Source: Eledone cirrhosa (Eukaryota). From it: DNA of 64,000 nt. The translations under genes were made by a program, and so were the position numbers. Below, one piece after another: positions 4,580 through 63,930 of the stretch; positions within the stretch are counted from its first letter, which is position 1, and each line of letters starts with the position of its first letter. Below the pieces are notes generated by a model that searched no databases, was not told the origin of the DNA, and worked only from the letters and a program-made list of their open reading frames with translations. The stretch covers positions 31,310,001 through 31,374,000 of the forward strand of contig OZ024749.1 of the NCBI GenBank assembly GCA_964016885.1, in the 5' to 3' direction.

Positions 4580-4757
4580 TACGTATATATATAAAAAGGG
4601 TAAATATAGTAAGTACTGTAAACTTTTTAAAATTTATTTTAAAACTTTTTCTCTATTTGCTAAACCTTGAATATATATATATATATATGTGTGAATGAAG
4701 TAATTCCATCGGAAAAGTCCAAGAAAAAAGAGTGCTCTATGTAGGTAACAGAGCTTA

Positions 4758-4954
4758 ATAGTTATGTAATAAACAACATAAGGCAATTATTTCATTTACA
4801 ACTGGTTTCTTAAAAGCAAAAAAATGTTGCTTTCAATCATCAGAATGAAAAAATCCTCTAGCGGATTTTTTCATTCTGATGATTGAAAGCAAATTTTTTT
4901 TGCTTTTAAGAAACCACTGGTAAATGAAATAATTGCCTTATGTTGTTTATTACA

Positions 4955-4961
<7 letters not shown>
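4758..4961. repeat. DNA palindrome, 99-bp arms, 6-nt loop, abutting (TA)n
   Basis: 4758-4856 is the near-exact reverse complement of 4863-4961. Confidence 0.95.
4869..4929 (+). ncRNA. Type I hammerhead ribozyme (mirror copy on - strand at about 4790-4850)
   Basis: tttcatt CTGATGA(4876-82) ttgaaagcaaa/tttgcttttaa GAAA(4910-13) ccactgg TA^(4922) aatgaaa. Confidence 0.85.
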
Positions 4962-7221: not shown

Positions 7222-7775
7222 ATATAAGAAAATTGGAGTGCTGCGTGGTTGCTCATGGGTTACATATGAATAGAATTAGTCCTTCATCAGTGATCTTCCA
7301 ACATTCATTGGTATTTCATTGCTTTAAAAATCATATACCTCTGGTTTGCCAGTCAAACTCTCTCTCGGCTGGTCTCTTCCTCACACTTCCACTCACTCAC
7401 TTTCTTCTTCTCCCCCTCTCTCACTTCCTCCCGTTTGACCTGTGTGAAATCCTTTTCTCGTTCACATCTCACCCATGTCGGATGGTCTGTATCTCTCGTC
7501 TATGAATTTACCAAGCTTAAGCTTACAGATATCATGTACTTTTCTCTTCCTATCTTTCCGTTGCAATACCATCGTTGTTTGTTTACTTGTCTCGCTCGTT
7601 TCACCATATTTTACTTGTCCCAATAACTTTATTTAGTTATTGCTCGCACCAACCAGAGGTATATGATTTTTAAAGCGATGATATACCAATGAAAGTTGGA
7701 AGATCACTGATGAAGGACTAATTTTATTCATATGTAACCCATGTGCAACCACGCAGCACTCCATTTTTCTTATAT
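7222..7775. repeat. Inverted repeat (~125-bp arms) around a ~300-bp spacer
   Basis: 7222-7349 versus 7650-7775. Arms contain CTGATGA but no properly placed GAAA. Confidence 0.9.
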
Positions 7776-7985: not shown

Positions 7986-8401
7986 GAAGGCAGTTGCCCG
8001 ATATAGACTTGTTATTTGTATTGACTTATTACTTTAAATCGAGACAGGCAAACCATAGTGTTTTAAATTAGTATTTTTTCAACCTAGCTAACTTGGTCAT
8101 TTACAATTCGAACACATGCATAATTGTATCGGTATTCATCCCTCTCATATATTCCAGTGTATTACACGGCTCGGAATGATTCCCTTCCTTGAGCTATTTA
8201 ATTGTAAAAGACTATTTTGAGTTTCTAACTCAACCTATGATATATATATATAATTCGAATTAATTTGCATTATTGATGCTCTGGGCAAATGTCCATTGAG
8301 CTTTTCTACTGAGAAACATGATCATCATATATTATATATGTTAAATTAGTATCTCTCTTCCTCTCTCTTTCCCTCTCTCTCTCTCTTTCTCCCTCTCTCT
8401 C

Positions 8402-8498
<97 letters not shown>

Positions 8499-8866
8499 CA
8501 TTTGGGTCCATGTCTGTTTTTATCATTTATTTTGTTTGACCTGTTTAGCTTGATTTGTTTTTTGGCTTAAGTGGTTAATGCCTTCTTGACCACTTTTTCA
8601 GTATGTATGGCGTTTTAACATATTGTTGAGCCCTAGTTATCTTAACTATTGGAGCGCTAGCCAGCATATCTACGATTTTGCGTTTCGTTTCGCTTTTTCT
8701 AGCAGCCGAAATACGATTCTCGCTGAATTTATATTTATATAATTGTCCTTAACACTATGACTTATTAAAGTAATATAAACAAATCACTATCCGGATTACT
8801 TCCAAAAACAATGGTTGTATTTTAATAGGGTACGTCAACACTTACTTGTAAAACTGTTATATATTG

Positions 8867-8931
8867 TATTTTGTCTGATGAAGGCATACCATAATTTAAT
8901 TTGGTATCCCTGAAATATGTATAATGAAATA
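8867..8931 (+). ncRNA. Type I hammerhead ribozyme, same family as the 63.6 kb copy
   Basis: tattttgt CTGATGA agg(c)atacca..tggtat(c)cct GAAA tatgta TA^ atgaaata. Downstream flank (ttttataaatatagtttccatt) matches 63710-63737. Confidence 0.8.
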
Positions 8932-8984
8932 AATATGATTTTATAAATATAGTTTCCATTTATTAGTATCGTATATATATATAT

Positions 8985-9165
8985 CAGGATAGAACCAGTT
9001 GAGAACTAGTTATACAATTACTCTATAGAGTACTCGATACTTGGGATAGTAGAGTATGACTATATTTTAAAGAGACGGGGCCCGACAGCTTAACTCTTGT
9101 CGTTTCTGAACATGGCGTGTACAACCCTTGTATCTGCCTATCTATCCCAAGTTTCCTAATACTCC
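8985..9165 (-). mobile_element. TA-associated insert distantly related to family A; second copy at about 51180-51325 (+)
   Basis: GAAAC..GTC/GTA, then actcta.tatccc.agtatcga.tact and actagtt..aact.gt..atcctgat in both copies. Confidence 0.7.
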
Positions 9166-9289
9166 ACAAGGAATGGACCGTTTCTCTCTGTCAAAAAGTT
9201 GTCTCACACGTAATATGACATCAATTCTACATTTAACTGACATAAAGCCAAACTACATCTTAACAAGATAAACTGGATCCCTGATCATT

Positions 9290-9700
9290 TGCGCTAAGAC
9301 CCTTCCGTAAATTTCATAATATGATCCATCAGCTTGATGTCCCGATAGTCCCCCTGTCTAGTGCAACTCCCTTGGCCTTGTAGAATTTGACGACGCTGCT
9401 GGAATGCCAGTCATTAGGTATGACACCATTTTGTGTTGCCTGATTCACAATACATATTGTTAATGTTTAGCCAACCAAGGTATATTCAGCATCTCAGCAA
9501 TTATTCCTGATGGTGAAGTTGCCTTATCCCACTTCATATCCTTAATTCCCTTACCTAATTTGGATGGCTGCTGGTGACAGACAGAATATGTTCCTTCCAA
9601 GCATTTTTTCATAATAGTATTTCGACGTTTGTTAATTCTCTCCGCGTTGGAAACGACCTGCGCGCCACTGACATTCCGGATACACTGTTCTCCAATAACA
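9290..9700 (-). mobile_element. RTE-clade LINE fragment (region just upstream of and entering RT), decayed
   Basis: Translates to IKDMKWDKATSPSGIIAEML and GVIPNDWHSSVVKFYKAKGVALD..DYRDIKLMDHIMK. Confidence 0.85.
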
Positions 9701-10129
9701 AAAATAAAGAAAATAGTTGATACTCATCAATAAAGAACCCCAACATTGTGTAGTTAATACATTTATAAAACTATATTAATCTCCAGGGACATTTACTTAA
9801 GTTAAATGAAACACATTAATAAAAGATATAAAAATTTGAAAGATAATATTTTTAAAACTTACAAATACTGAACAGCCAAAGTAACAATGATGAAAAGAAG
9901 ATGGTTTCTTTGAATTAACATAGCGTTCAAAGTAATGTATTAATCGTCAAACTGAGAATTGAATGGAGTTGTGTTACGTCTGGTATTGCTTGTAACAGTA
10001 AATATATATATATAAGTGTGTGTGTGTCTGTGTGTGTGTGTGTATACATACACAGACACACACACACGCACATATATATATATATATGTACGTATGTACA
10101 TATGCATGTATATACGTATGTATATACGT

Positions 10130-10420
10130 ATGGTCAGGTCACCAGTTGGTGCTACTGGTAACATGTATCCCAGTACAACCTGTCTCATGGTCGGGTCGTT
10201 GGCGACTAAACTGGCAACCCCACCAAGGTTTCTTGGTGAGGAGGGTGACTTTGGACATCCTGCAGGACTAAAAACAAAACCTGTCAAAGGGCCAAGGAGC
10301 TCTTAAGAGTCAATGGCCATCCAAAATCACAGGGAGAGATGACCCCTTAGCCTTTGTCAAGGCAGAATTCTAGGAGAAGGAAAACTCTGATATAACACTT
10401 GCAACCCTGATGGTATCCAA
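10130..10420 (+). mobile_element. Probable RTE-LINE 5' UTR remnant
   Basis: GC-richer island with ctaggagaaggaaaactctga and actggcaacccc words that I recall from RTE 5' UTRs; no ORF; not verified by search. Confidence 0.5.
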
Positions 10421-10429
10421 TGATGTTGA

Positions 10430-10800
10430 CTTGTTCTTCTTTTTGGTAAATATCATGTTGGTTAAGAGAGTGGGACTGGCTTTGTGCAGTGCCTTTGCTC
10501 ACTATAAAAGCTTCACGGCACAGGTATTGCTTTATATCTGGAGATCTCTCTACACTTGTCGTCACATGGTACCATGGGCCCAGCACTATGTGTCAATAAT
10601 TGTCACAAGTGTAGTGTTTGTACCAGAGTTTTCAAGTCGCTGGCTGGACTAAAATGTCTCACTCGTTCAGCGCATTGGTAGGGGTTCTCCTACTTGGATA
10701 TAAAGTAGTGGCCGTACTCGAAAACGAGTTGGCAGCCACCATATACGTATGTATGTATTTTGGCTCTACAAAGATTAATAAACAACTGGTTGTTCTCATG
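10430..10800 (-). pseudogene. Possible highly decayed GIY-YIG (Penelope-like) fragment
   Basis: Across frameshifts: CRAK..VY..CQL..YIQVGEPL.MR/LNE..CREAFIV..SLNQ. Confidence 0.35.
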
Positions 10801-11334
10801 CTTATTTAAGATCTAGGTACGGTCACGTGTATATTTAGAAAAGCTGCATAGGTTTACTTTCAATTAATCGATTAAAGGCTCCAGGACTGGTGAATATGTC
10901 ACCCGTCTTTGCCTAGATAGTCTCCGTAAGAAGCGATTATCTTATACATGTTGTAAACTCCTTTACTTTAAAAAAGGGGGTTACACATTTCCTTCAAATA
11001 TGGATTTAACTCTAATCGTCATTTATTGATTTCGACAGTGTTTAGTCCAGAAATTGTGACTGGGATAGAATTAGAATTGTTTGGTTGTGGATTTGTTGGT
11101 TGATGGGAATATTTGGGTTCAATAACTACTGTTTAATTTTCTTAATATTACTGGATAAAAAACATACCTTATTATTAATATTACTGGTTCAAATCCCGCC
11201 GAGATTAGTTTTGCCTTTCATCCTTAAAGGGTCGCTAAAATAAAGTACCAGTAACACACTGAGGTTGATTTAATCAAATTTCCAGTTACCTCAAATGGTA
11301 GGCGTTGTGCCTAAATCAGAAATCATTATTAACA

Positions 11335-12096
11335 CTAGCAGAAAAACCACCGTTAGGCTGCTTTTCTGCGAGCATGTGTAGTGTGCATATATATATTATA
11401 CGCAAATATATATGCATGTTTATATCATACGTTGAATGAAATCGTAATGCACAGAAATTGAACGAAGTCTGTGTTACACTCTATCCTGTAATCAGTAAAG
11501 TAATCCATGATACATTAAAAAAAGACGATATTATATATAAACTTCATATATAATAAACTAAAATGTTATGAAAACGAAAAAGGAGAAAATTAGCGACTTA
11601 AATATAGACCTTATATAACGATACAAATATAATTCATCCCTTCCTTTACATTTTCTTTACTGTTTTAAACGATGATGTGTTTGCTTGTTGTTTTTAGTGG
11701 TTTGGCATTCCTTCTTAAGTTTCAACGCAGTTTTTTTTCCTCTCTTCTTTTATTTAAACATTTCCTTTCTCCCTCCCCTTCTCCTAAACCTTTTCCTTAC
11801 TTTCGTTATTTAATTTTTTTCCCTCTTTCTTTTTCTTTTTGTTATTTCAAACATTATATAACCGATTTGAGATTTGTTGAAAGTTTATATAAGCGATGTC
11901 ATAAGGGTTATAATATAACTGACGCTAACCGGAAGTGTTGGCATTTGAAAATTTTAAAGAAGTGAAACTTAAAATAAGCAATACTTTATATATAAGAATA
12001 TTTATGTTTAATCAAGAGCTACGAAATTTAGTAGATAAATTACATAATATTCATTCATTATTCATTTAAAGAATCCAACTTATTTTACTAACGGGA
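11335..12096 (-). mobile_element. Second copy of the Helitron-like element (empty SINE site)
   Basis: Reverse-complement match to 56001-56719 including both termini. Confidence 0.75.
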
Positions 12097-12544
12097 TAAA
12101 ACATTATATAATGGACACTGTCCCGCACTCCTCCCTTTATTATATTATAAATTACTGGTTAAAATCTGGCCATATTGTTAACAATACTTGTTAATAGATG
12201 ACCTCATTGTTAATATTACCAGTTAAAACCTGACCATATTGTTAATAATAGTGGTTAAAAACGCAACTTATTAATAATACTGGCCAAAAACTGGCCATCA
12301 TTGTGAATAATGCTGATTAATAACTGTTCATAATGTTAATAATACTGGTTAAAATCTGGCTATATTGTTAAAAATATTTGTTAATAGCTGATCGTCATAT
12401 ATATATATATGCAAAAGAAACCAAAGAAAGCTCTCATACTCAAACAGTTTTAATCACTAACAATGTTTCATGCTCACCTTTAGGCAGGAATCAGCAGAGC
12501 TCAACAAATATCGTGTTGAGTATACCCTCCGAACATACGTAAAT

Positions 12545-12582
<38 letters not shown>

Positions 12583-12985
12583 TTAATACATAAACAGAGA
12601 AAGCCTTGAGCTATACTCTGACTGGCAACCATCTCACTCAACAAACTTTAGGATATACCTTAATATAATCCCAATTATATGTTTGGGGTGCTAACTATAT
12701 GTATTTTGTGGAAAGCCACTTGTATTATTTTATATGAGATACAATTAAAATTAAAATATATATCTCTCTGCTGATATATATATATATATAAAGAACAAAT
12801 AGAGTGTGGTAAGATGCCAGGTGGTCTCTAACGCACCAGAGTACTCAATTTTTGAGGTAGTAGAGTGGGTAACATTAAAAGATTCAGGACCCCAACGACA
12901 GAGATCCGTCCGTTTTGACAGCTAGATCCGGTTGATTTAATTGTCGATACAGCCGGAGCTCAGTCTTTGGGGTTCTGACTTGTTT

Positions 12986-13101
<116 letters not shown>

Positions 13102-13173
13102 TATATATTTATATATATATATATACATATATATGTACATATATATATATTTATATATATATATATATATATA

Positions 13174-13243
<70 letters not shown>

Positions 13244-13258
13244 TATATATATATGTAC

Positions 13259-13471
<213 letters not shown>

Positions 13472-13533
13472 TATATATATATATATATATATACATATAT
13501 ATACATATATGTACATATATATTTATATATATA

Positions 13534-13724
<191 letters not shown>

Positions 13725-13732
13725 TATATATA

Positions 13733-13874
<142 letters not shown>

Positions 13875-14614
13875 AATATATATTTATACATAAACTCACA
13901 TATACACACACAGATATATATACATACAATATACATACATAATATAAGATTGTAAGGACAACAACAAACAGCACCATGACAATACCAACACCCACTACAA
14001 CAACAACAACAACAACAACATCTGCAACAATTAACCACAGCCATAAACGACACTATCAATACCGATCTCAATTATGAATGATATCAATCAACATATTACC
14101 CCTATCAATAATCGATTAACACCCGATCCTACACCCACTCACATGCAACATCATCAACATAAGGAACAATTACTTAATCAAAAACTCATACAGTGTAGCA
14201 GCAGCAGCAGCACGTAAGAGAAAAACAATATTAAACAACAACAACAACAACAACAACAACAGCAACAACAACAACAACAACAACAAAACTATCAATAGAA
14301 AAAACGTCACCAATATCATCATCTACAAAAATAATTGTTTCTACTTTTGGCACAAGGCCAGCTAATACCCCAGTGTATTACTGGTACTTTATTTTATCGA
14401 TCCCCGTAAGGATGAAAGGCAAAGTTAACCTCGGCGGGATTTGAACTCATAACGTAAAGGGTTATAACTCTATGCCCTAAAACATTGAGTCTGACGCCCT
14501 ACCGATGCTGCCAATTCAATAATAAGTGTTTCTAGTTTATGGCACAAGGCCAGCAATTACCCAGTGTATTACTGGTACTTTATTTTATCGACCCCGTAAG
14601 GATGAAAGGCAAAA

Positions 14615-15041
14615 CACACAACAGTAACAATAACAACAACAGTAACAATAACAACAATAATACTAGTAACAACAACTTTAACAAGAGACAAACAACAACA
14701 GTAAGAACAACGGCAGAAACAACAACATCAATAACAAACACAACAATAACAGTAACAGCAATAACAGCAAAAACAACAGTAACAATTACAACAACAGTAA
14801 CAACCACAGCAGTAACAACAACATCAATAACAGTAACAACAATAGCAGCAACAACAACATCAATAATAACAACAGCAATAACAACAGTAGCAACAACAAC
14901 AACAATAACAAAAACAACAGTAGCAGTAACAATAACAACAATAGCAACAGCAATAATAATAACAACAACAACAACAGTAGCAGTAATAACAACAACAACA
15001 ACAACAACAGTAACAATAACGACAACAGTAGCAGTAACAAT

Positions 15042-15075
<34 letters not shown>

Positions 15076-15834
15076 GTAACAATGACAATAACAACAACAG
15101 CAACAGTAATAACAACAACAACAGCAGCAGCAGTAACAATAACACAACAGTAGCAGCGATAACAACAACAACAGTAGCAGTAATAACAACAACAACAGTA
15201 ACAACAACAACAACAGTAGCAGTAACAATAACGACAACAGCAACAGTAATAACAACAACAACAACAGCAGCAGCAGCAGTAACAATAACAAACAGTAGCA
15301 GCGATAACAACAACAACAACAACAACAACAGTAGCAGTAACAATAACAACAACAGCAGCAGCAATAAGAACAACAACAACTACAACAACAAACAGAGGGT
15401 TAACGTACAAAGGAAGACAGCTACACAGAAAGCAATAATACAGTCCACAATAAACAACAACAACAACAACAACAACAGCAGCAGCAGCAGTAACAATAAC
15501 AACACCAGCAGCAGCAATAACAACAACAATAACAACAACAACATCTGCATCATCAAACAGTTTAACAACTGTTTCTACATTAGGCACAAGGCCAGCAATT
15601 ACCCCAGTGTATTACTGCTACTTTATTTTATCGACCCCGTAAGGATGAAAGGCAAAGTTAACCTCGGCTGGATTTGAACTCAGAATGGAAAGGGCCGTAA
15701 CTCTATGCGCCAAAGCATGGCGTCCGACCCTCTACCGATACTGCCAATCCACCGCCCTTAAACAGTTTAATAACAACACAATGTATCTCTACACAAGGTA
15801 TCTCTAGTTCTTACTAGATTTACAACCGAACTGT

Positions 15835-15895
<61 letters not shown>

Positions 15896-15969
15896 AAAAC
15901 TACTACTACTAAAACTGCTACTACCACCACCAACAACACCATTGCTATTACTAGTAGTATCAACAGCAA

Positions 15970-16032
<63 letters not shown>

Positions 16033-16048
16033 CAACAACAGCAGCAGC

Positions 16049-16092
<44 letters not shown>

Positions 16093-16098
16093 CAGCAC

Positions 16099-16139
<41 letters not shown>

Positions 16140-16170
16140 ATAGTAGTAGTAGTAGTAGTAGTTCTATCGC
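14615..16170. repeat. (AAC)n, (TAC)n and (TAG)n trinucleotide microsatellites
   Basis: Direct inspection; source of the poly-T/V/L ORFs. Confidence 0.97.
15563..15758 (-). mobile_element. tRNA-derived SINE, representative full copy (about 30 full or partial copies in the window, e.g. near 3320, 5336, 5560, 6685, 11185, 14330, 22814, 30518, 32305, 33823, 35100, 35298, 35883, 46432, 48024, 54681, 56036, 58065, 58530, 58810, 60060)
   Basis: Head gggcggtggattggcagtatcggtagag (A-box), gagttcaaatcc (B-box), core ttgcctttcatccttacggggtcgataaaataaagtaccagt; 11-18 bp TSDs (aaacagtttaa here, ttactttgaataaataat at 56 kb). Confidence 0.92.
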
Positions 16171-16631
16171 TGCTGCTGCTACTATTTGTGTAATTCTTTT
16201 CTCGTTACGGCTCTGCTCACGTTGCCACCATTGCTGCTGCTGCTGCTGTCACTGCTGCTAGTTTCACTTTCGTTTTCGTTTGTCCATTCATTCATATATT
16301 TCAATTATTAAAAACAACCTCCTCCTGCCACCAGAGTTAACATACCACCTCCTCCCGTCACCAGTTCTCCTCCCTTCTGTATTAATCTTCTATGCCAACT
16401 TCCTCCTTTCTTTACCACCCTCTTCCCTCTCCCCCCTCCCCTTCTCTCTGTCTCTCTCTCTATTCCACCTGATGTTACAAATTACTATTTCAAGCATCTT
16501 CTCTCCTCCCATTCACTAAATTTGTATTACTACGGGACGAAACCCCTCCCCCAAACCAGGCCTGCCAATCTATATTTACATATAAACACCCTCCCTCTGT
16601 CTGTCTCTCTGTCCCTTTCTCTCTCTCTCTC

Positions 16632-16706
<75 letters not shown>

Positions 16707-16813
16707 TTCACCCACTCTACCTCGCATAAATACAAACATAATCCCCCCGCCCCCTCTCTCACCACTCTCAGTGTATTTCCAACTCGCTCTCTGCCCCTCT
16801 CTCTCTCTCTCCA

Positions 16814-16865
<52 letters not shown>

Positions 16866-17069
16866 TCTCTCTCACTCTCTCCACTCACACACCATAGACA
16901 CTCACATACACACACACATATATGTCTATATTAAAAACCATATCTATAATCACTACTTCTACTGCTACTGCTGCTACTACTACTAATTTTGTTATTATTA
17001 ATTAGTATTTTTTTTATTATTATAAGTAGTAAATCTATATATAAATACATATATATATTTATATATATA

Positions 17070-17133
<64 letters not shown>

Positions 17134-17221
17134 ATATACAGACACACACATACACACACACGAACGTACATACATTCATACATACAGAGAGGCATACATA
17201 CGTAGATAGTTGTATACAAAC

Positions 17222-17309
17222 ATGCATATATATGGGTTTATATGAATGACATCGGAGTAAGAAGAAGCCATATCACGACTTGGACAGCATTCTGTGAACA
17301 TCTCTTCAA
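17222..17309 (-). CDS. Candidate exon (3' boundary uncertain)
   Basis: Long polypyrimidine tract then ttaagcag after a 100-bp intron; in frame IEEMFTECCPSRDMASSYSDVIHINP. Confidence 0.35.
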
Positions 17310-17409
17310 CTGCTTAAGTGTTACTTAAACAGAGAAGAAAAAAAAACAAGAATAGCAACAGCCCAGCATTCTGCCGCCTAAGTTGCAGTCTGTGTATTTA
17401 TTCACTTAC

Positions 17410-17443
17410 TGTTACGGGCAGGTGTGATAGGGGGATCAAAAAC
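17410..17443 (-). CDS. Candidate 34-bp exon
   Basis: Acceptor tgttgtgtag, donor gtaagt; VFDPPITPARN; phase-compatible with 28314-28430 and with the next exon starting at 17309. Confidence 0.4.
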
Positions 17444-18194
17444 CTACACAACATAAACGTCATTAGCATCACAAAACTATTTTATTTAAAAGGAACACAT
17501 CAATAACAACAACAACAAAAACAAAAACAGAAAAACTATTAACTTGCTAAAACCAAAAACAATATATATATATATATATACACACAAGAATCCCCTCCCA
17601 CTAAAAAATTAATCAGCACCCCAAAATATATTAATCAGCACCCCAAAGATTATGAGCAACAATTAAAACTTATAACATACACACACAAAGACACAAACTA
17701 ACTTCTAAATATACCTCTTTAACACTAGATATATATTTATATATATATTTATTTATTCCAATCGCACCTATACAATTTTCCGTTTAAAGATCAATTAATT
17801 ACCTTGAACATTATGTTACTTCAAAGAAATCGTCTTCTTTTGATCATCTTTACCCTGGTTCTACCTAATTTGTAAGTTTTAAAAATTATTTTTTCAATTT
17901 AAAATTTTTTATCATTTTTTTTTTTTTTTTTTTACTAATGTGTTTCATTTAACTAAGGTCTGTGTACCCCTGGAAATTAACACAGTTTTCTACATGTGTA
18001 AACCGTACGACGATGGAGTTCTTTAACGGTGAGGGAAACTAATTTTGAGTTGTCTGTTTGAACAGTAAAACTTTCTACTTAAATCCATATTATTAATATC
18101 ATTTCTTAACGTCATCATTCTCTGCCCCCCCCCCTCTCTCTTTATCAATCTTTCTTTCTATTTCACTTCCTTTTTCTCTCTTTGTCTCTCAATT

Positions 18195-19881: not shown

Positions 19882-19953
<72 letters not shown>

Positions 19954-20176
19954 ACCCTCGTGGCTGACCTCCGGCCGCTCCGACAGATAAATCCGAATTG
20001 TTCGGATCTAGCTATGAAAACGTTCGAAGCTCAGCCACTGGGGACCTGACTCTTTTCATATTACCAACTCTACTGCCCTAAATATTGAGTAATCTGGTGC
20101 GTTTTGGTCCACCTGGAATCTTATCTCACCTTGTTTGTCATATATATAAATATATATATATATATATATGTGTGTA

Positions 20177-20241
<65 letters not shown>

Positions 20242-20512
20242 CGAAGGAAATGTGGTAAGGAACCAGGTGGACCGTAACGCACCAAAGTACTCAATACTTA
20301 GGGTAGTAGAGTGGGTAATAGGAACGAGTAGGACCCCGACGGCTGAGCTCAAGCCGTTTCGACGGCTAATTCTGGACTGTATATATATATATTTGGCATA
20401 TTATTTTCTGTGAGTTACTCAACCGATACAAGTGTACACAGAATAGAGTACTCGACGGTGTATGCGTATAACAGAGACTGTGTAACAGATGAGTAAATTG
20501 TAACCTACTGTC

Positions 20513-20583
<71 letters not shown>

Positions 20584-20897
20584 CAAACAAGGTAAGATAC
20601 CAGGGGGACGAAAACGTACCAGATTACTCGTTACTTAGGGCAGTAGAGTTGGTAATATGAAAAGAGTGAGATCCCCAATGGCTGAGCTTCGAATGTTTTG
20701 ATAGCTAGATCTGAACAATTCGGATTTATCTTTGTCGGAGCGGCCGGAGGTCAGCTGCCAGGATCCTCACTCTTTCTATATATATATATATATATATAAT
20801 GAAATGAACTGCTTTACGTTTAGTACTCTCTATATTATTACATTACGATTGACCATACGGAATAGACCAGCTCTATCCAGTGGTGAACCTCAAACAT

Positions 20898-23704: not shown

Positions 23705-23776
<72 letters not shown>

Positions 23777-23932
23777 CAAAGAGGGTGTGGTAAGATACCA
23801 GGTGGACCAAACCGCACCATAGTACTCGATACTCTGGGTAGTAGAGTGGGTAATATGAAAAGATTCAGGACGCCGATGGCTGAGGCTCCGGTAGTCTCCG
23901 GTAGTCTCGACACCTAGATCCTGAATCTTTTC

Positions 23933-23966
<34 letters not shown>

Positions 23967-23968
<2 letters not shown>

Positions 23969-24172
23969 CGAAGGAAATGTGGTAAGGAACCAGATGGACC
24001 ATAACGCACCAAAGTACTCAATACTTAGGGTAGTAGAGTGGGTAATAGGAACGAGTAGGACCCCGACGCATGAGCTCAAGCCGTTTGGACGGGTAATTCT
24101 CGACTAAAATCATTTTAGTCCAGAATTAGCCGTCGAAACGGCTTGAGCTCAGCCGTCGGGGTCCTACTCGTT

Positions 24173-24177
<5 letters not shown>
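23967..24177 (-). mobile_element. Family A: ~200-bp non-autonomous (TA)n-inserted element with terminal palindrome. Other copies: 12791-12988(-), 19951-20140(+), 20240-20379(-), 20582-20777(-), 23775-23935(-), 24384-24578(-), 30209-30280(+), 42823-42977(+)
   Basis: Shared sequence tgtggtaagga/ataccaggtggacc..aacgcacca.agtactc..tactt.gggtagtagagt.ggtaata; every copy is flanked on both sides by TA repeats. Confidence 0.9.
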
Positions 24178-24243
<66 letters not shown>

Positions 24244-24573
24244 CACAACAGTTAGTTCACCATCATGGTGGACTAACTGTTGTGTTGCCACTTCTACCTA
24301 ACTCGTCCCATGGACTGAGTGCTCTGCCACTATGGATATTACCTTCCAGTGTTCTACCACTCTCTCTATCTATATATATATATAACGAAGGAAATGTGGT
24401 AAGGAACCAGGTGGACCATAACGCACCAAAGTACTCAATACTTAGCGTAGTAGAGTGGGTAATAGGAACAAATAAGACCCCGACGGATGAGCTCAAGCCG
24501 TTTCGACGGCTAATTCTGTAACAGAATTAGCCGTCGAAACGGCTTGAGCTCAGCCGTCGGGGTCTTACTTGTT

Positions 24574-24624
<51 letters not shown>

Positions 24625-28817: not shown

Positions 28818-29112
28818 TTACAATAATCAAAGTTCAGTTTAAATCATTTATTTGCTTACAATTGTTTCCTCCAAACCGAGGTTTGGATTCTTCGGAGCAA
28901 CTATTTAGTGATCTATAACATACTTGACCTCCTTTTCAACACAAGAGACATATAAAACATATGCACATATGTTTTATATGTCTCTTGTGTTGAAAAGGAG
29001 GTCAAGTATGTTACAGATCACTAAATAGTTGCTCCGAAGAATCCAAACCTCGGTTTGGAGGAAACAATTGTAAGCAAATAAATGATTTAAACTGAACTTT
29101 GATTATTGTAAT
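28817..29112. repeat. DNA palindrome, 147-bp arms, 2-nt loop
   Basis: Centre catatg-ca-catatg at 28958-28971; one mismatch seen between arms. Confidence 0.95.
29029..29077 (+). ncRNA. Hammerhead ribozyme variant with CCGAAGA core; identical mirror copy on - strand at about 28852-28900
   Basis: ttgct CCGAAGA a-tccaaacc-tc-ggtttgga-g GAAA caattg TA^ agcaa. The U4C change is present in both arms. Confidence 0.75.
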
Positions 29113-29533: not shown

Positions 29534-29659
<126 letters not shown>

Positions 29660-29750
29660 GAGTTTATGTTGGTTGTATACCAACACCTCAGTATGCAGGC
29701 TTGAGCACTCGACGAAGTGCGCAGGTTGGTTCGGTTACTCCGGAGTAGTG

Positions 29751-30164
29751 TAAAATAAAGTTAAATAAAAGTCAAATGATTAAAATTTAGCTTCTTTATT
29801 ACTGCTATATATATTTGAGTGACAGCCATCTTTGGCTGTAACCTCTTCAGGCAGTTTGAATTAGACAAGTACATATGTTGTTTAGGTGTATAATATAGTC
29901 AATACTCTGATATGCCCAGTTCCTTGTTGGGTTGTTATTTCACATATGACTCCAGTTCCTCAATGAAATAACAACCCAACAAGGAACTGGGCATATCAGA
30001 CTATTGACAAGATTATACACCTAAACAACATATGTACTTGTCTATACCACACTAATTCAAACTGCCTGAAGAGGTCACAGCCAAAGATGGCTGTCACTGA
30101 AATATATATAGCAGTAATAAATGGAGCTAAATTTTAATCATTTGACTTTTATTTAACTTTATTT

Positions 30165-30195: not shown

Positions 30196-30277
30196 ATATA
30201 TATATATGTAGGACCCGGACGGCCGAGCTCTGGTGCGTTATGGTCCACGTGGTTTCGTACCACACGTCCTTAGTTTG

Positions 30278-30309
<32 letters not shown>

Positions 30310-47505: not shown

Positions 47506-48305
47506 TTATTTCCAACAAAGCCACAAATTTGATGTTGGTTGAATCATAAAGAGTCGGATCATAAAGAGCCGGATCAAATTGCGCGGAACAACTTATCTGA
47601 CATTCCACCGGTTCTACCAATCTTCCGCCCTAAATAAAAGTATATTTAGAAACAGAGCAACAAAATACCTGCATGTAATTGTATATACACCCACATATAC
47701 AGGTAATAGCAAATACTTTGCTTCCATTGTAATTAGGAAATAAGATGTGAATGACATATTTAAATAGTAACGAAAATCGATATAATTAAATTAATAAAAA
47801 AAATCGATGATTCTTGTTTCCCTTCTACTTAACACTAAACTGCCAAACATAGATATTACTTTTTTCTTTGGTGGAACATACACATCATTAGAGGAATCAA
47901 AAGAAGATATTTTTCATTTAATCGACAAAAAAAAAGTCAAAACCGATTTTATAAAAAACAGATCGAAAGGTGATCATTTACATTAACACCGCTTTCTTCT
48001 CTCATTATTAACCCTTTTATTAACGGTGGATTGGCAGTATCGGTAGAGGGTCGGACGCCATGGTTTGACGCATAGAGTTACGTACGTCCCTTGCCATTCT
48101 GAGTTCAAATCCTGCCGAGGTTAACTTTGCTTTTCATCCTCACGGGGTCGATGAAATAAAGTACCAGTAATGCACTGGGTAATTTCTGGCCTTGTGCCTA
48201 AATAGAAACAATTATTTACCCTTTTGATACAATCCCGCACAAAACATAATTCGTTATTATTTAACAACAGAAGCAGCCATTTCTTAAAATCATTCCTACA
48301 TAATT

Positions 48306-50117
48306 ATACACAAGGTAATATTGTGGGAAGGGACCCACAGGAGATGCAGTAGAGGAAGATATACACAAGGTAATATTGTGGGAAGGAACCCACAGGAGAT
48401 GCAGTAGAGGAAGATATACACATGGTAATATTGTGGGAAGGAACCCACGGGAGATGCAGTAGAGGAAGATATACACAAGGTAATATTGTGGGAAGGAACC
48501 CGCAGGAGATGCAGTAGAGGAAGTTATATACAAGGTAATATTGTGGGAAGGAACCCACGGGAGATGCAGTAGAGGAGGATATATACAAGGTAATATTGTG
48601 GGAAGGAACCCACAGGAGATGCAGTATAGGAAGATATACACAAGGTAATATTGTGGGAAGGAACCCACAGGAGATGCAGTAGAGGAAGATATACACAAGG
48701 TAATATTGTGGGAAGGAACCCACAGGAGATGCAGTAGAGGAAGATATACACAAGGTAATATTGTGGGAAGGAACCCACGGGAGACGCAGTAGAGGAGGAT
48801 ATATACAAGGTAATATTGTGGGAAGGAACCCACAGGAGATGCAGTAGAGGAAGATATATACAAGGTAATATTGTGGGAAGGAACCCACGGGAGATGCAGT
48901 AGAGGAAGATATATACAAGGTAATATTGTGGGAAGGAACCCACGGGAGATGCAGTAGAGGAAGATATATACAAGGTAATATTGTGGGAAGGAACCCACAG
49001 GAGACGCAGTAGAGGAAGATATACACAAGGTAATATTGTGGGAAGGAACCCACAGGAGACGCAGTAGAGGAAGATATATACAAGGTAATATTGTGGGAAG
49101 GACCCACAGGAGATGCAGTAGAGGAAGATATACACAAGGTAATATTGTGGGAAGGAACCCACAGGAGATGCAGTAGAGGAAGATATACACAAGGTAATAT
49201 TGTGGGAAGGAACCCACGGGAGATGCAGTAGAGGAAGATATACACAAGGTAATATTGTGGGAAGGAACCCGCAGGAGATGCAGTAGAGGAAGTTATATAC
49301 AAGGTAATATTGTGGGAAGGAACCCACGGGAGATGCAGTAGAGGAGGATATATACAAGGTAATATTGTGGGAAGGAACCCACAGGAGATGCAGTATAGGA
49401 AGATATACACATGGTAATATTGTGGGAAGGAACCCACAGGAGATGCAGTAGAGGAAGATATACACAAGGTAATATTGTGGGAAGGAACCCACAGGAGATG
49501 CAGTAGAGGAAGATATACACAAGGTAATATTGTGGGAAGGAACCCACGGGAGACGCAGTAGAGGAGGATATATACAAGGTAATATTGTGGGAAGGAACCC
49601 ACAGGAGATGCAGTAGAGGAAGATATATACAAGGTAATATTGTGGGAAGGAACCCACGGGAGATGCAGTAGAGGAAGATATATACAAGGTAATATTGTGG
49701 GAAGGAACCCACAGGAGATGCAGTAGAGGAAGATATATACAAGGTAATATTGTGGGAAGGAACCCACAGGAGACGCAGTAGAGGAAGATATATACAAGGT
49801 AATATTGTGGGAAGGAACCCACGGGAGACGCAGTAGAGGAGGATATATACAAGGTAATATTGTGGGAAGGAACCCACAGGAGATGCAGTAGAGGAAGATA
49901 TATACAAGGTAATATTGTGGGAAGGAACCCACGGGAGATGCAGTAGAGGAAGATATACACAAGGTAATATTGTGGGAAGGAACCCACAGGAGACGCAGTA
50001 GAGAAAGATATATACAAGGTAATATTGTGGGAAGGAACCCACGGGAGATGCAGTAGAGGAAGATATATACAAGGTAATATTGTGGGAAGGAACCCACGGG
50101 AGATGCAGTAGAGGAAG
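48306..50117. repeat. 55-bp satellite, ~33 copies
   Basis: Unit atacacaaggtaatattgtgggaaggaacccacaggagatgcagtagaggaagat. Confidence 0.98.
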
Positions 50118-51338
50118 ACCTGCTTGAACCGTCATCGATCAACTTTCAAACGTTACACACCGTAACTTTCAAACGTTACAAATGCTTGATACCGTAACTC
50201 TTGAATGAGTCGTAGGGTCGCCATATTGACATACGGCATATCTAGGGCATTTTTTAAACCTAGATAAGGCTATCTCATCTCCAGATATCTTTAATCTGTA
50301 TACAGCAGATTTCTTCAAGATAATGTGTGAGTATATGAGTGAGAAAGAGATATATAGGAAGAATCTATCCTAGTATCTGACTGGAACTCTTTTAACAACT
50401 TGGAATGGAAGAAAGGCTAATTTGACCTCGGTGGGATTTGAACTCAGAGAGGAGAGAGCCAAAACTAGCACTACAAAGCATTCTATCCGAGGTTCTAACG
50501 ACTCTGCGAATTCGCTACGGACATATAGAGGAAAATAAATGGAAAACAGGGTAGAGAGCTGATCAAAGCTCCTTTATTCCAATTCTTTACGATTTGTTTT
50601 TAAAACCCACTAAAGTTAACCTTTCCTTCCCTCCTTTCAGGTTCGATCAAGTAAAGTAAAGTTCAAGCACTGAGATCGATTTAATCGACTATTTCCTAAA
50701 CTTAAGTCGGTTGAACTCCACAGGGAACCATTTTCAGTACATATACACAGATACACAAAACACACACACACATACAAATACACACAGACTCACGCATACA
50801 CACACACACGCACGCACACACATACATATATATACATATATATATAAACATATATGTATGTATGTAAATTTACTTACATAGTACTGAGACTAGAGTAGAT
50901 CGAACTCTATATGCTTTTTACGTTTGAAATTACGACTGCAATTGAGCATATCCAGGCATATCCAGCCGAATGTTTCCTATGCAAGAGGTCATAGTCTTTA
51001 ACCTATTCTCAACTCAGTGCCGTGTGAGAAAATCTCACTAACGAAGGATAAAAACCCAGAAATTTCTATCTGTTATTCCCAACGTCAACTAAGGTAGCTG
51101 TGACATTATCACTTATTAAAAAAGGTATAGCGATACTCTCATATATCTATTATACATAAACATATCGTATATTCTTTTATATAAATCCCTGACATTTCTT
51201 ATCGAAACAACAAAAGCTCAGACGTAGGTCCCTAACTATCTAGTATATTTACACTCTATTATCCCTAGTATCGAATACTTTACTGAAAAATCTTCTTACT
51301 AGTTTAAACTAGTGAAATCCTGATCCCTCCCCTATTTG

Positions 51339-60297: not shown

Positions 60298-60396
60298 TAC
60301 ATTAATTGAAGAAATTTAGATAATTGAGCAATTAATTGTAGCAATTATGAATTTAGCAAATAAGTATGTCATAGAAAATATACATACACCTATTAC

Positions 60397-60434
<38 letters not shown>

Positions 60435-60528
60435 GTAATAGGTGTATGTATATTTTCTATGACATACTTATTTGCTAAATTCATAATTGCTACAATTAAT
60501 TGCTCAATTATCTAAATTTCTTCAATTA

Positions 60529-60953: not shown

Positions 60954-60984
<31 letters not shown>

Positions 60985-61002
60985 GTGGTTACACAACAGT
61001 TA

Positions 61003-61059
61003 GTTCACCATACCGAGAACAATTGTTTCACCTTAGCGGCTCCTCAGCTCGTAATGAAC
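61003..61059 (-). ncRNA. Type I hammerhead ribozyme in the 3' pseudo-LTR of the Penelope-like element
   Basis: Minus strand: gttcattacgag CTGAGGA gcc-gctaa-ggt GAAA caattg TT^ ctcggtatggtgaac. Stem I cgag/ctcg plus gttcatta/tggtgaac; palindromic stem III; about 160 nt downstream of the endonuclease stop. Confidence 0.85.
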
Positions 61060-61216
61060 ATGGTTATACGGAACAGGTAGGTCAACCATACGAACGCGCA
61101 TGCGCAGAAACCGGTCACTTCACAGGCAATACTAAAATGCATGCGAGAGGTGTAAGGGAGATAACTGCGAAAGACCTAAAAGTTTCTAGTTGATGAGAAA
61201 ATTATGGTGTTGTAAT

Positions 61217-61723
61217 TCAATCCGGAGCTTTGTAGTTATGCAAGAGGTGTTTTGAGACGTGTGGACAACGTGTGAAGAATCCATTTCTCGTGTTTAGGGA
61301 ATCACTATTGCATAATCTCTTTAGAATATTTATTCGTTCATCAATACATAGTCCACACGACGGATTTCCCCTTGCGTATGGTTTGGACTTAATGATGGCT
61401 TTCCATTGAATAGAGTAGTCTATACTTGAGTCCTTGAGGGACCATACCTGGCTGGCGAGTTTCGTGGATGAACGTCTGTCCGACTACCTAAAGGTCAACT
61501 GGTGGTTCAGGAAACGTTCCTTAAATCGGCCCTCCGCCATACCCACATATGATTTGACCTGCTGTGGTTCGTTTGGTCGGTTGGAAGTGACCACAGCTTC
61601 ATAGATTACAGCTGGTGTGTTGCATTGCTGTTGAAGGGTGCAAGCTTCGGGCTTACGGCAAGAGCACCCTGATAGGGTGTTGCTCCTAGGGCTGGTGGTG
61701 ATGTGGGCCTTGATGTTCTTCAT
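61217..61723 (-). pseudogene. Penelope-like (Neptune-type) retroelement C-terminus: Cys-rich linker plus GIY-YIG endonuclease, 5'-truncated, one in-frame stop
   Basis: ORF 61484-61723 reads CSCRKPEACTLQQQC..VIYEAVV..KSYVGMAEGRFKERFLNH. Reading through the TAG at 61484-86 the same frame continues STKLASQVWSLKDSSIDYSIQWKAIIKSKPYARGNPSCGLCIDERINI..LNTRNGFFTRCPH to TGA at 61217. This matches the PLE GIY-YIG motif series (VIY..YVG..R..H..CxLC..E..LN..CxH), with the Cys linker typical of Neptune. Confidence 0.9.
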
Positions 61724-62050
61724 GTAAACTTGGCCAGATTACAGAACTAAACAATATATGTTAAAACCAAACAAGATTTGAACTCAGAATTTCAACGAAT
61801 GCTCTAGCAATTTGGCAAAGTCGCAACCATAACTATGTAATTTGCATATAAAACAGCAATACAATGAAATGATCATAAAGTTTTGTGAGCAAATGGATCA
61901 CATGGGCGACTTTTTCTCTTTTAATATGTTATCTATTTTAATTATATTTATTCCTGTTAGAACTTAAGCAAAATAATCTTTGTGGAAGCGAAATAATCTT
62001 TCTTGAATTTACATTTGCTTTAATTATAATTGAAGAAGCAAACACATTCC

Positions 62051-63317: not shown

Positions 63318-63750
63318 ACGATATTAAACAAATGGAAACTATATTTATATTTATAAAACCATATTTATTTCGTTATATATATTTCTGGGATATCATATTA
63401 AAAATATGTTATGCCTTCCTCAGACAAAATACAATACATAAGCTGTTTTATAAATAATTAGTGACATACCTTGTGATAATGCAACTTCCTTTTAAAAAGT
63501 TGATTTGGTACCAAATCAACTTTTTAAAAGGAAGTTGATTTGGTACCAAATCAACTTTTTAAAATCAACTTTTTAAAAGGAAGTTGCATTATCACAAGGT
63601 ATGTCACTAATTATTTATAAAACAGCTTATGTATTGTATTTTGTCTGAGGAAGGCATAACATATTTTTAATATGATATCCCAGAAATATATATAACGAAA
63701 TAAATATGGTTTTATAAATATAAATATAGTTTCCATTTGTTTAATATCGT
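63318..63750. repeat. DNA palindrome, ~190-bp arms, reiterated centre
   Basis: Arms 63318-63506 and 63562-63750; gttgatttggtaccaaatcaac occurs twice in the centre. Confidence 0.95.
63637..63702 (+). ncRNA. Type I hammerhead ribozyme (mirror copy 63366-63431 on - strand)
   Basis: tattttgt CTGAGGA(63645-51), imperfect stem II, GAAA(63683-86) tatata TA^ acgaaata. Confidence 0.8.
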
Positions 63751-63836
63751 AAACCTACTCCAGAAACTGTTGAGTGCTTTTATATCAGTTATAAAATATT
63801 TACTCGTTGTAACCCAACAATCTTAAATAAAACTGT

Positions 63837-63930
<94 letters not shown>

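What the first reader, a model, noticed from the sequence alone, without database searches (positions are those of the whole stretch)
23967..24578. Family A: terminal palindrome centred beside a hammerhead 3' half, with arms changing in concert
The arm reads ..gccgtc GAAAC-ggct-tgagctc-agcc-GTC ggggtcc, i.e. GAAA, stem III and a GUC triplet, but no CUGANGA is present: the position of stem II is the palindrome axis. Adjacent copies differ in both arms together (aacGagtaGgacc versus aacAa.taAgacc) and have different centres, which suggests the second arm is re-synthesised from the first by fold-back. In contrast, the 19951 and 20582 copies share arm mismatches, suggesting a subfamily that inherits the hairpin. 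Inference: cDNA snaps back at ribozyme stem II, or the half-ribozyme is cleaved in trans by another RNA supplying CUGANGA.
Basis: partly seen in the sequence, partly recalled or inferred. Interest (0 to 1): 0.7.

Follow-up and report, generated by a model that had tools for sequence, protein, structure and literature searches.

The report
Penelope-type hairpin insertions with half hammerhead
These short mirror-image repeats in TA microsatellites have the known layout of Penelope-type jumping-gene insertions, their two arms were likely copied from one RNA at both ends of a DNA cut, and the half of a self-cutting RNA motif they carry has no visible partner and is likely an inactive relic.

Summary
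The palindromes, the GAAA/stem III/GUC half-hammerhead (3 of 5,000 shuffles on the same strand) and the concerted arm variants are real. Family A has the published Penelope-like (PLE) layout: (TA)n, inverted arm, direct arm, one-sided 78-nt tail. Four unrelated families in the window share it, three with complete hammerheads in both arms. Reads show an abundant family (0.19% of RAD reads) whose inverted arm ends at the arm/tail boundary. Some copies have an inverted arm longer than its partner, which copying one arm from the other cannot give; two priming events, closed by snap-back or microhomology, fit best. Longer relatives show no CUGANGA in 47-48 nt upstream, so the axis is not a native stem II. 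The 19951/20582 pair is not a subfamily: depth at its centre is 1-2 copies, and the two share 12 of 19 rare changes. In palindromic RNA the half-ribozyme is fully paired. Still of interest: inner ends of seven insertions fall 13-28 nt upstream of GAAA, likely the RNA's 5' end. The scan noted similar hairpins elsewhere in this genome.

The parts
23968..24045 (-). Copy 1: 78-nt one-sided tail (3' extension in element sense; element sense is the minus strand here)
   Evidence: same position as the tails of families B, C, D, E
24016..24039 (-). Copy 1: bulged ACTC...GAGT stem starting 7 nt behind the arm end (candidate reverse-transcriptase start signal; lead from earlier notes)
24046..24110 (-). 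Copy 1: tail-side (direct) arm; five private changes, G of GAAA lost
24111..24111 (.). Copy 1: palindrome axis (1-nt spacer, 3-nt loop)
24112..24176 (+). Copy 1: inverted arm, ends at the arm/tail boundary against (TA)n
24135..24157 (+). Copy 1: hammerhead 3' half (GAAA, 6-bp stem III, GUC); no CUGANGA
24177..24242 (.). (TA)n target array between copies
24243..24365 (+). Family B insertion between the two copies: 20-nt inverted arm, 3-nt loop, direct arm, ~80-nt tail; same layout, unrelated sequence
   Evidence: longer copy at 60982-61738
24385..24462 (-). Copy 2: 78-nt tail, with bulged stem at 24433-24456
24463..24519 (-). Copy 2: tail-side (direct) arm
24520..24520 (.). Copy 2: palindrome axis (1-nt spacer, 3-nt loop)
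24521..24577 (+). Copy 2: inverted arm
24536..24558 (+). Copy 2: hammerhead 3' half
23776..23935 (-). Family A, subfamily 2 copy: long direct arm, 17-nt inverted arm joined at a 3-nt microhomology
20241..20379 (-). Family A copy with tail and direct arm only, no inverted arm; intact half-hammerhead
19950..20141 (+). Old subfamily 2 copy, duplicate partner of 20583
20583..20778 (-). Old subfamily 2 copy; centre at 1-2 copy depth
42802..42976 (+). Family A copy with a 21-nt direct arm and a ~70-nt inverted arm (inverted arm holds sequence absent from its partner)
12791..12989 (-). Old subfamily 2 copy, two arms 39/58 alike
30208..30278 (+). Family A copy reduced to part of the tail and 23 nt of inverted arm

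Best explanation
Family A is an abundant, short, non-coding element with the insertion layout of Penelope-like elements (inverted arm, direct arm, one-sided tail, in TA repeats), likely pasted by a Penelope-type enzyme that primes two cDNAs from one RNA at the two ends of a cut, and its half hammerhead is likely an inactive relic. Shown: the layout, the fixed outer ends, arms sharing variants within a copy, unequal arm lengths, inner ends 13-28 nt 5' of GAAA, and no CUGANGA in 47-48 nt of native upstream sequence. Inferred: (1) the enzyme nicks both strands of (TA)n; (2) one end primes at the tail end, the other at the arm/tail boundary, as the two start sites seen in vitro for Poseidon; (3) both cDNAs run to about the same place, most likely the 5' end of the RNA; (4) the gap is closed either by a snap-back with a 3-nt loop whose product anneals to the other cDNA (symmetric copies) or by microhomology (asymmetric copies); (5) cleavage is not needed, so the ribozyme's 5' half could be lost or replaced.
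For: Layout shared with four unrelated families in the window, three with complete type I hammerheads in both arms (63321-63839, 29650-30162, 4689-4958) and one whose longer copy sits behind a decayed reading frame resembling a Hydra-clade endonuclease (by eye: against the alignment; Pfam found nothing). Layout published for PLEs; octopus Hydra and Naiad families prefer (TA)n. Two internal start sites, both strands nicked and extended, ribozyme mutants still insert (PMC11167929). Fixed boundary: 3,543 and 3,059 reads pass from position 20318 into TA repeats (table 7). Asymmetry: copy 42976; 7 of 13 listed opposite-strand joints leave from inside the tail, 3 of those 7 seen in whole-genome contigs (table 5). 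Concerted variants in 4 of 4 younger two-armed copies. No CUGANGA upstream: loose ends at 20378 and 20368 and 20716, whereas the complete hammerheads of this window have 11-36 nt between CUGANGA and GAAA. Stem III competes with an alternative hairpin (P 0.45 versus 0.54) and is absent in palindromic RNA.
Against: No coding partner of family A was found; none of the family's motifs tried hit the Craig et al. consensus file as an exact match in a related element (line breaks can hide matches). Asymmetric copies could be later deletions in an unstable palindrome, and RAD joints near the AATT site at 20368-20371 could be ligation chimeras. Exactly symmetric centres with 3-nt loops (two family A copies, one family B copy) look like fold-back and need the extra snap-back step. 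Many reads continue into native upstream sequence (584 in X9, 1,586 in X7), so not all copies stop at the cluster and a single fixed RNA start is too simple. The half-hammerhead core is better kept between subfamilies than its flanks (by eye, 31 of 33 nt, from loose-end consensus), which a pure relic does not predict. No RNA data.
Confidence: 0.6

Rival explanations
1. One cDNA folds back and rebuilds the entire second arm from the first (first reader; self-priming was proposed for PLE palindromes in PMC3846280); the new strand stops at the TA at the arm/tail boundary by annealing to the target.
For: Symmetric centres with 3-nt loops; concerted variants; TA microhomology at the boundary in families A and C; copy 23776 fits a large-loop fold-back.
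Against: Inverted arms longer than their partners (copy 42976; 7 of 13 listed joints); same fixed boundary in families B and D, where the boundary offers only 1 nt of microhomology; centres do not retain the native loop that a snap-back at the native hairpin would leave.
Confidence: 0.17
2. The half-hammerhead is part of a working ribozyme in the parent RNA, with CUGANGA more than 48 nt upstream (long stem II insert) or beyond the tail end (type II order), outside the part that is normally copied. The insertion route could still be as in the best explanation.
For: Motif rarer than chance, on the sense strand, GUC 17 nt before the arm end, comparable to family B (26 nt); core kept between subfamilies; Craig et al. 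list split cores ('HHR_half_core') in Naiads.
Against: No CUGANGA or stem I partner in 47-48 nt upstream or in the 78-nt tail; no two-sided covariation in stem III between subfamilies; a competing hairpin; the rewired order seen in octopus Naiad ends needs CUGAUGA shortly after GAAA, and family A has none.
Confidence: 0.13
3. The half-ribozyme is a substrate cleaved in trans by another RNA that supplies CUGANGA.
For: Substrate-type half (GAAA, stem III, GUC) is intact in young copies; dimeric action of PLE hammerheads is proposed (PMC4209133).
Against: No candidate partner among the 20 CTGANGA sites of the window; the half is fully paired in palindromic RNA; cleavage at GUC would separate GAAA and stem III from the tail, yet inserted arms keep them.
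Confidence: 0.04
4. A DNA foldback element or MITE, or arms homogenised after insertion by gene conversion.
For: Short, non-coding, palindromic, TA target; arms match within copies.
Against: Inverted repeats are not at both termini (78-nt tail outside one arm); centres and arm lengths differ per copy; one copy has no second arm (20241); private mismatches between arms persist (5 in copy 23968).
Confidence: 0.06

Closest known systems
Insertion layout of endonuclease-bearing Penelope-like elements: inverted 5'-truncated pLTR plus one-sided tail (Arkhipova et al. 2013, PMC3846280, passages; Craig et al. 2021, PMC8557442, passages and supplement parts)
   Same: Head-to-head arms, tail at one end only, palindrome at the inverted junction, (TA)n target, no visible target-site duplication.
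   Different: Whole insertion about 200 bp with no reading frame; tail 78 nt rather than 30-40; inner ends clustered; only the 3' half of a hammerhead.
Hydra clade of PLEs, e.g. Hydra-1_Obim (PMC8557442 supplement)
   Same: (TA)n preference; neighbouring family B looks like a Hydra 3' end and shares the bulged tail stem with family A.
   Different: Hydra elements are reported to carry complete hammerheads throughout; family A does not, and no sequence match to Hydra-1_Obim was found.
Poseidon_Ac in vitro (Frangieh et al. 2024, PMC11167929, main text parts 1-2 of 4 read)
   Same: Two internal start sites that bracket the tail, both strands nicked and extended, AT-rich target, ribozyme dispensable for insertion.
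   Different: The parts read do not show how the inverted arm or its centre is formed; different clade, no (TA)n array target.
Animal non-LTR retrozymes (PMC7229834, passages; bioRxiv 10.64898/2026.07.22.740005, part 1 of 5)
   Same: Small, non-coding, hammerhead-associated, proposed to be moved by PLEs.
   Different: Retrozymes are head-to-tail arrays with a complete type I hammerhead in each unit; family A copies in the window are not arrays and have no complete core.
Type-SGC rearranged hammerheads (Eckert et al. 2023, PMC10085705, passages) and the split cores at octopus Naiad ends
   Same: GAAA block without CUGANGA 5' of it.
   Different: SGC needs the cleavage block before GAAA and CUGANGA after it; family A has the cleavage block after GAAA and no CUGANGA.

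Membership tests
Penelope-like element (EN+) insertion | Inverted 5'-truncated end copy next to the direct copy | tested here: met
   8 of 9 window copies have an inverted arm or its remnant
Penelope-like element (EN+) insertion | Tail extension at one end only | tested here: met
   78-nt tail; reads leave into TA at both 20241-20251 and 20318
Penelope-like element (EN+) insertion | (TA)n target as in Hydra and Naiad families | tested here: met
Penelope-like element (EN+) insertion | Linked RT and GIY-YIG reading frame in longer copies | tested here: inconclusive
Type I hammerhead ribozyme | GAAA, stem III with A-U base pair, NUH site | tested here: met
Type I hammerhead ribozyme | CUGANGA and stems I and II 5' of GAAA | tested here: not met
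   absent in all window copies and in 47-48 nt of native upstream sequence of both subfamilies; no hammerhead family among 52 Rfam matches to E 10
Type I hammerhead ribozyme | Self-cleavage at GUC | not testable with these tools
   no assay; no RNA run listed
Type II or SGC hammerhead | CUGANGA 3' of GAAA or of the cleavage site | tested here: not met
   none within arm and tail; sequence beyond the tail end not visible
Non-LTR retrozyme | Head-to-tail units each with a complete hammerhead | tested here: not met
   window copies are separated by (TA)n and lack the core; one contig shows a 107-nt step back
MITE / foldback DNA transposon | Inverted repeats at both termini and constant structure | tested here: not met
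   tail lies outside the palindrome; centres vary

The most novel reading that the evidence does not exclude
Family A carries a discontinuous hammerhead: the CUGANGA half lies outside the part the enzyme copies (beyond the start site at the tail end, far upstream, or on another RNA), so every inserted copy is a cleavable substrate but never a self-cutter, and the repeated AGCCGTC on both sides of GAAA switches stem III on and off.
Probability: 0.1. Interest if true: 0.75.

Novelty: new member of a known kind. Interest (0 to 1): 0.35.

Why it matters
How Penelope-like elements make their inverted ends is an open point; the papers read propose self-priming or leave the step unexplained. A young family with thousands of ~200-bp insertions, fixed outer ends, clustered inner ends and both symmetric and asymmetric centres is a convenient data set and a small RNA substrate for telling two-ended priming from fold-back. 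It also suggests that a family can spread after losing half its ribozyme. The class and layout are known, and the scan has noted them many times in this genome, so the surprise is modest.

Tried and rejected
No whole genome is held, so no genome-wide arm phylogeny; only pairwise arm identities for 15 arms of 8 window copies (copy 30278 and the distant 9008 relative left out). Rfam: no hammerhead family among the 150 listed of 278 matches for the window or the 52 for 23900-24620. Metagenome scans: tail pattern 0 hits; core pattern 5 hits, all GC-rich and without an upstream CUGANGA, taken as chance. Two short motifs from the upstream loose ends found only chance-level matches in the window. No RNA holder listed; this is no evidence on expression. 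Organism C gave 0 contigs on the old subfamily 2 copy, which may be a false blank. SGC and Naiad-type rewiring checked by eye against and rejected: no CUGAUGA after GAAA; CTGA followed by ATC or CTC in subfamily 2 lacks G8 and A9. A CTGCTGG upstream in subfamily 2 was considered as a decayed core and rejected, as it has no stem I or II in register. ADAR-type editing was considered for the 19951/20582 arm mismatches: mixed change types, not convincing. Earlier-findings look-ups by sequence and near this place returned nothing. Searches for a published two-ended priming model or half-hammerhead PLE family found the layout, self-priming and the in vitro start sites, but no such model or family in the listings and passages seen; subscription papers are not covered, and bioRxiv supplements were not seen.

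Full report
Observation. The window is animal DNA rich in (TA)n; an octopus is likely (inference from its repeats and from the (TA)n-targeting octopus PLEs listed). At the given coordinates lie two copies of a ~200-bp element, each a 78-nt unique segment followed by a palindrome of 65 or 57 bp that ends in (TA)n. The right arms read GAAA, a 6-bp stem III and GUC (24135-24157, 24536-24558). That motif arises in 3 of 5,000 dinucleotide shuffles of the arm on the same strand and 19 of 5,000 on either strand (>=5 bp). None of the 20 CTGANGA sites in the window falls in a family A copy. BLAST finds nine copies and one distant relative near 9008-9140; they form two subfamilies.

What it is. Read on the strand where the tail follows the arm, each copy is (TA)n, inverted arm, direct arm, tail, (TA)n. 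This is the published layout of Penelope-like insertions: an inverted 5'-truncated copy and a tail at one end (PMC8557442; PMC3846280). Four unrelated families in the window have the same layout with tails of 80-105 nt. Three carry complete type I hammerheads in both arms (63321-63839, 29650-30162, 4689-4958; my scan did not list the 29850 arm, which one search shows). The fourth, family B, sits between the two focal copies; its longer copy (60982-61738) has a complete hammerhead behind a decayed frame that by eye matches the Hydra-clade endonuclease alignment, although Pfam returned 0 families for 4 pieces. Family A's tail has a bulged ACTC...GAGT stem 7 nt behind the arm end, and families B and C have one at 16 and 10 nt (lead from earlier notes). 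The family is abundant: 23,618 of 12.5 million and 24,263 of 12.8 million RAD reads (0.19%), 17,143 contigs in a whole-genome run, and 33 contigs in a second organism. RAD counts are biased by a cut site in the arm (7,225 and 7,330 reads end at 20371). An order of 10^4 copies follows only if a 2-3 Gb genome is assumed.

Are the arms made together? Yes. In 4 of 4 younger two-armed copies (23968, 24385, 42976, 23776) both arms carry the same diagnostic letters in the distal 21 columns, and these letters segregate in the population (20326 G>A 30%, 20331 G>A 46% of X1 depth). Against a clean picture: the right arm of 23968 is closer to copy 20241 (60/61) than to its own left arm (60/65), because that left arm has five private changes; and the old copy 12791 gives no signal (39/58).

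Fold-back or two primings? The inverted arm ends at the arm/tail boundary: 3,543 and 3,059 reads pass from 20318 into TA (table 7). In vitro, a Poseidon enzyme nicks and extends both strands and starts at two internal sites that bracket the tail (PMC11167929), which gives such ends directly. A fold-back can only copy what the first arm holds. Copy 42976 has a 21-nt direct arm and a ~70-nt inverted arm. Of 13 opposite-strand joints listed (15 of 20 rows shown), 7 leave from inside the tail (20265-20312), 6 of them into arm positions 20365-20378, and 3 are in whole-genome contigs (table 5). Later deletion or ligation chimeras could explain some. On the other side, the two focal copies are exactly symmetric with a 1-nt spacer, that is a 3-nt loop, as is the family B copy between them (by eye). 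I read this as two cDNAs that fix the outer ends, with the centre closed by snap-back and annealing in some copies and by microhomology in others (3 nt in copy 23776). These steps are inferred. Self-priming as the source of PLE junction palindromes is already proposed in PMC3846280.

Is the axis stem II? Not natively. Reads show what lies upstream in longer relatives: loose ends at 20378 (subfamily 1; 104 contigs in X1, one in X5) and at 20368 and 20716 (subfamily 2; 1,586, 1,646 and 584 reads). With the window sequence this exposes 48 and 47 nt 5' of GAAA. Neither has CUGANGA or a partner for the GGGGUCC strand, whereas the complete hammerheads of this window have 11-36 nt between the two cores. 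The consensus lines stop at 30 letters, so a more distant core is not excluded. By eye, each subfamily has a native hairpin that closes 3 nt before GAAA (subfamily 1: GGCT/AGCC and AATTCT/AGAATT around a 10-nt loop; subfamily 2: a weaker 6-bp stem around a 7-nt loop). The long arms of seven independent insertions end 13-28 templated nt 5' of GAAA, six of the seven in that loop or at its edge (one search counts, trimmed by eye for spacer bases; the 13 for copy 23776 includes 5 nt that my cut gave to the other arm; the 19951/20582 pair counted once). Three arms are much shorter. It cannot be the only template, since many reads run further upstream.

Is the hairpin inherited in a subfamily? No. 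On copy 20583, no read or contig is 99% alike; X1 depth falls from 8,000-18,000 over the tail and 400-600 over the left arm to 9 at the centre (unique flanks gave 1-5), and 0 reads of a second individual cross it. At 19 positions where more than 70% of X9 reads differ from copy 20583, copy 19951 shares its letter at 12. The two are one decayed copy duplicated, 440 bp apart and inverted; flanks beyond the TA show no similarity, so whether by DNA duplication or one retrocopy is open. Illumina libraries under-sample hairpins, but this one is only about 65% paired.

Could the half-ribozyme work? In a one-armed RNA, stem III (P about 0.45) competes with a hairpin that buries GAAA (P about 0.54), because AGCCGTC occurs on both sides. 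In palindromic RNA of either strand, stem III has P 0.0. Ribozyme mutants of Poseidon still insert in vitro, and Naiads spread without a canonical hammerhead. An inactive relic is the simplest reading. The good conservation of the core between subfamilies leaves room for a distant or trans core (together about 0.17).

Papers seen: PMC8557442 passages, supplement searches and part 24; PMC11167929 parts 1-2 of 4; PMC3846280, PMC4209133, PMC7229834 and PMC10085705 passages; bioRxiv 10.64898/2026.07.22.740005 part 1 of 5; others as search listings only. Hammerhead numbering and the roles of G8 and A9 are recalled.

Verdict. Real feature, new member of a known kind. Interest 0.35.

Noticed in passing
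window 63319-63839, 8814-8964: Palindromic element with complete type I hammerheads in both arms and a 92-nt tail; complex centre with duplicated segments; a one-armed relative at 8814-8964.
   Followed up: partly
window 29650-30162: Unrelated palindromic element, hammerheads in both arms, 21-nt asymmetric centre, ~105-nt tail.
   Followed up: partly
window 4689-4958: Palindromic element with a hammerhead in both arms, arms ending about 12 nt upstream of CUGAUGA at a self-complementary centre, 80-nt tail.
   Followed up: partly
window 60982-61738: Family B long copy: hammerhead at 61047 (minus) behind a decayed frame resembling the C-terminal endonuclease of Hydra-clade PLEs.
   Followed up: partly
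window 8985-9140: Distant family A relative: GAAAC and GUC kept, stem III broken by one mismatch, tail with two bulged stems; lies next to what looks like an RTE LINE fragment (recalled motif).
   Followed up: partly
window 24046-24110: Five transversions clustered in the tail-side arm of copy 23968, none in the other arm; one is shared with the tail-side arm of copy 24385. Error-prone fill-in or assembly error.
   Followed up: no
window 52055: Another single type I hammerhead in a TA-flanked segment.
   Followed up: no
window 7226-7346 and 7651-7771; 28818-29111; 60307-60524: Further inverted repeats next to (TA)n without a complete hammerhead; 28818-29111 has a 2-nt spacer, 60307-60524 is centred on a TA array.
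   Followed up: no
window 48161-50145: 55-bp tandem array of about 35 units; also many copies of a ~190-bp SINE-like repeat across the window.
   Followed up: no
table 5c (window 20241-20392): 65-83 RAD reads join a 20241-type end through a short TA run to the start of another copy, suggesting other loci or alleles with the identical truncation.
   Followed up: no
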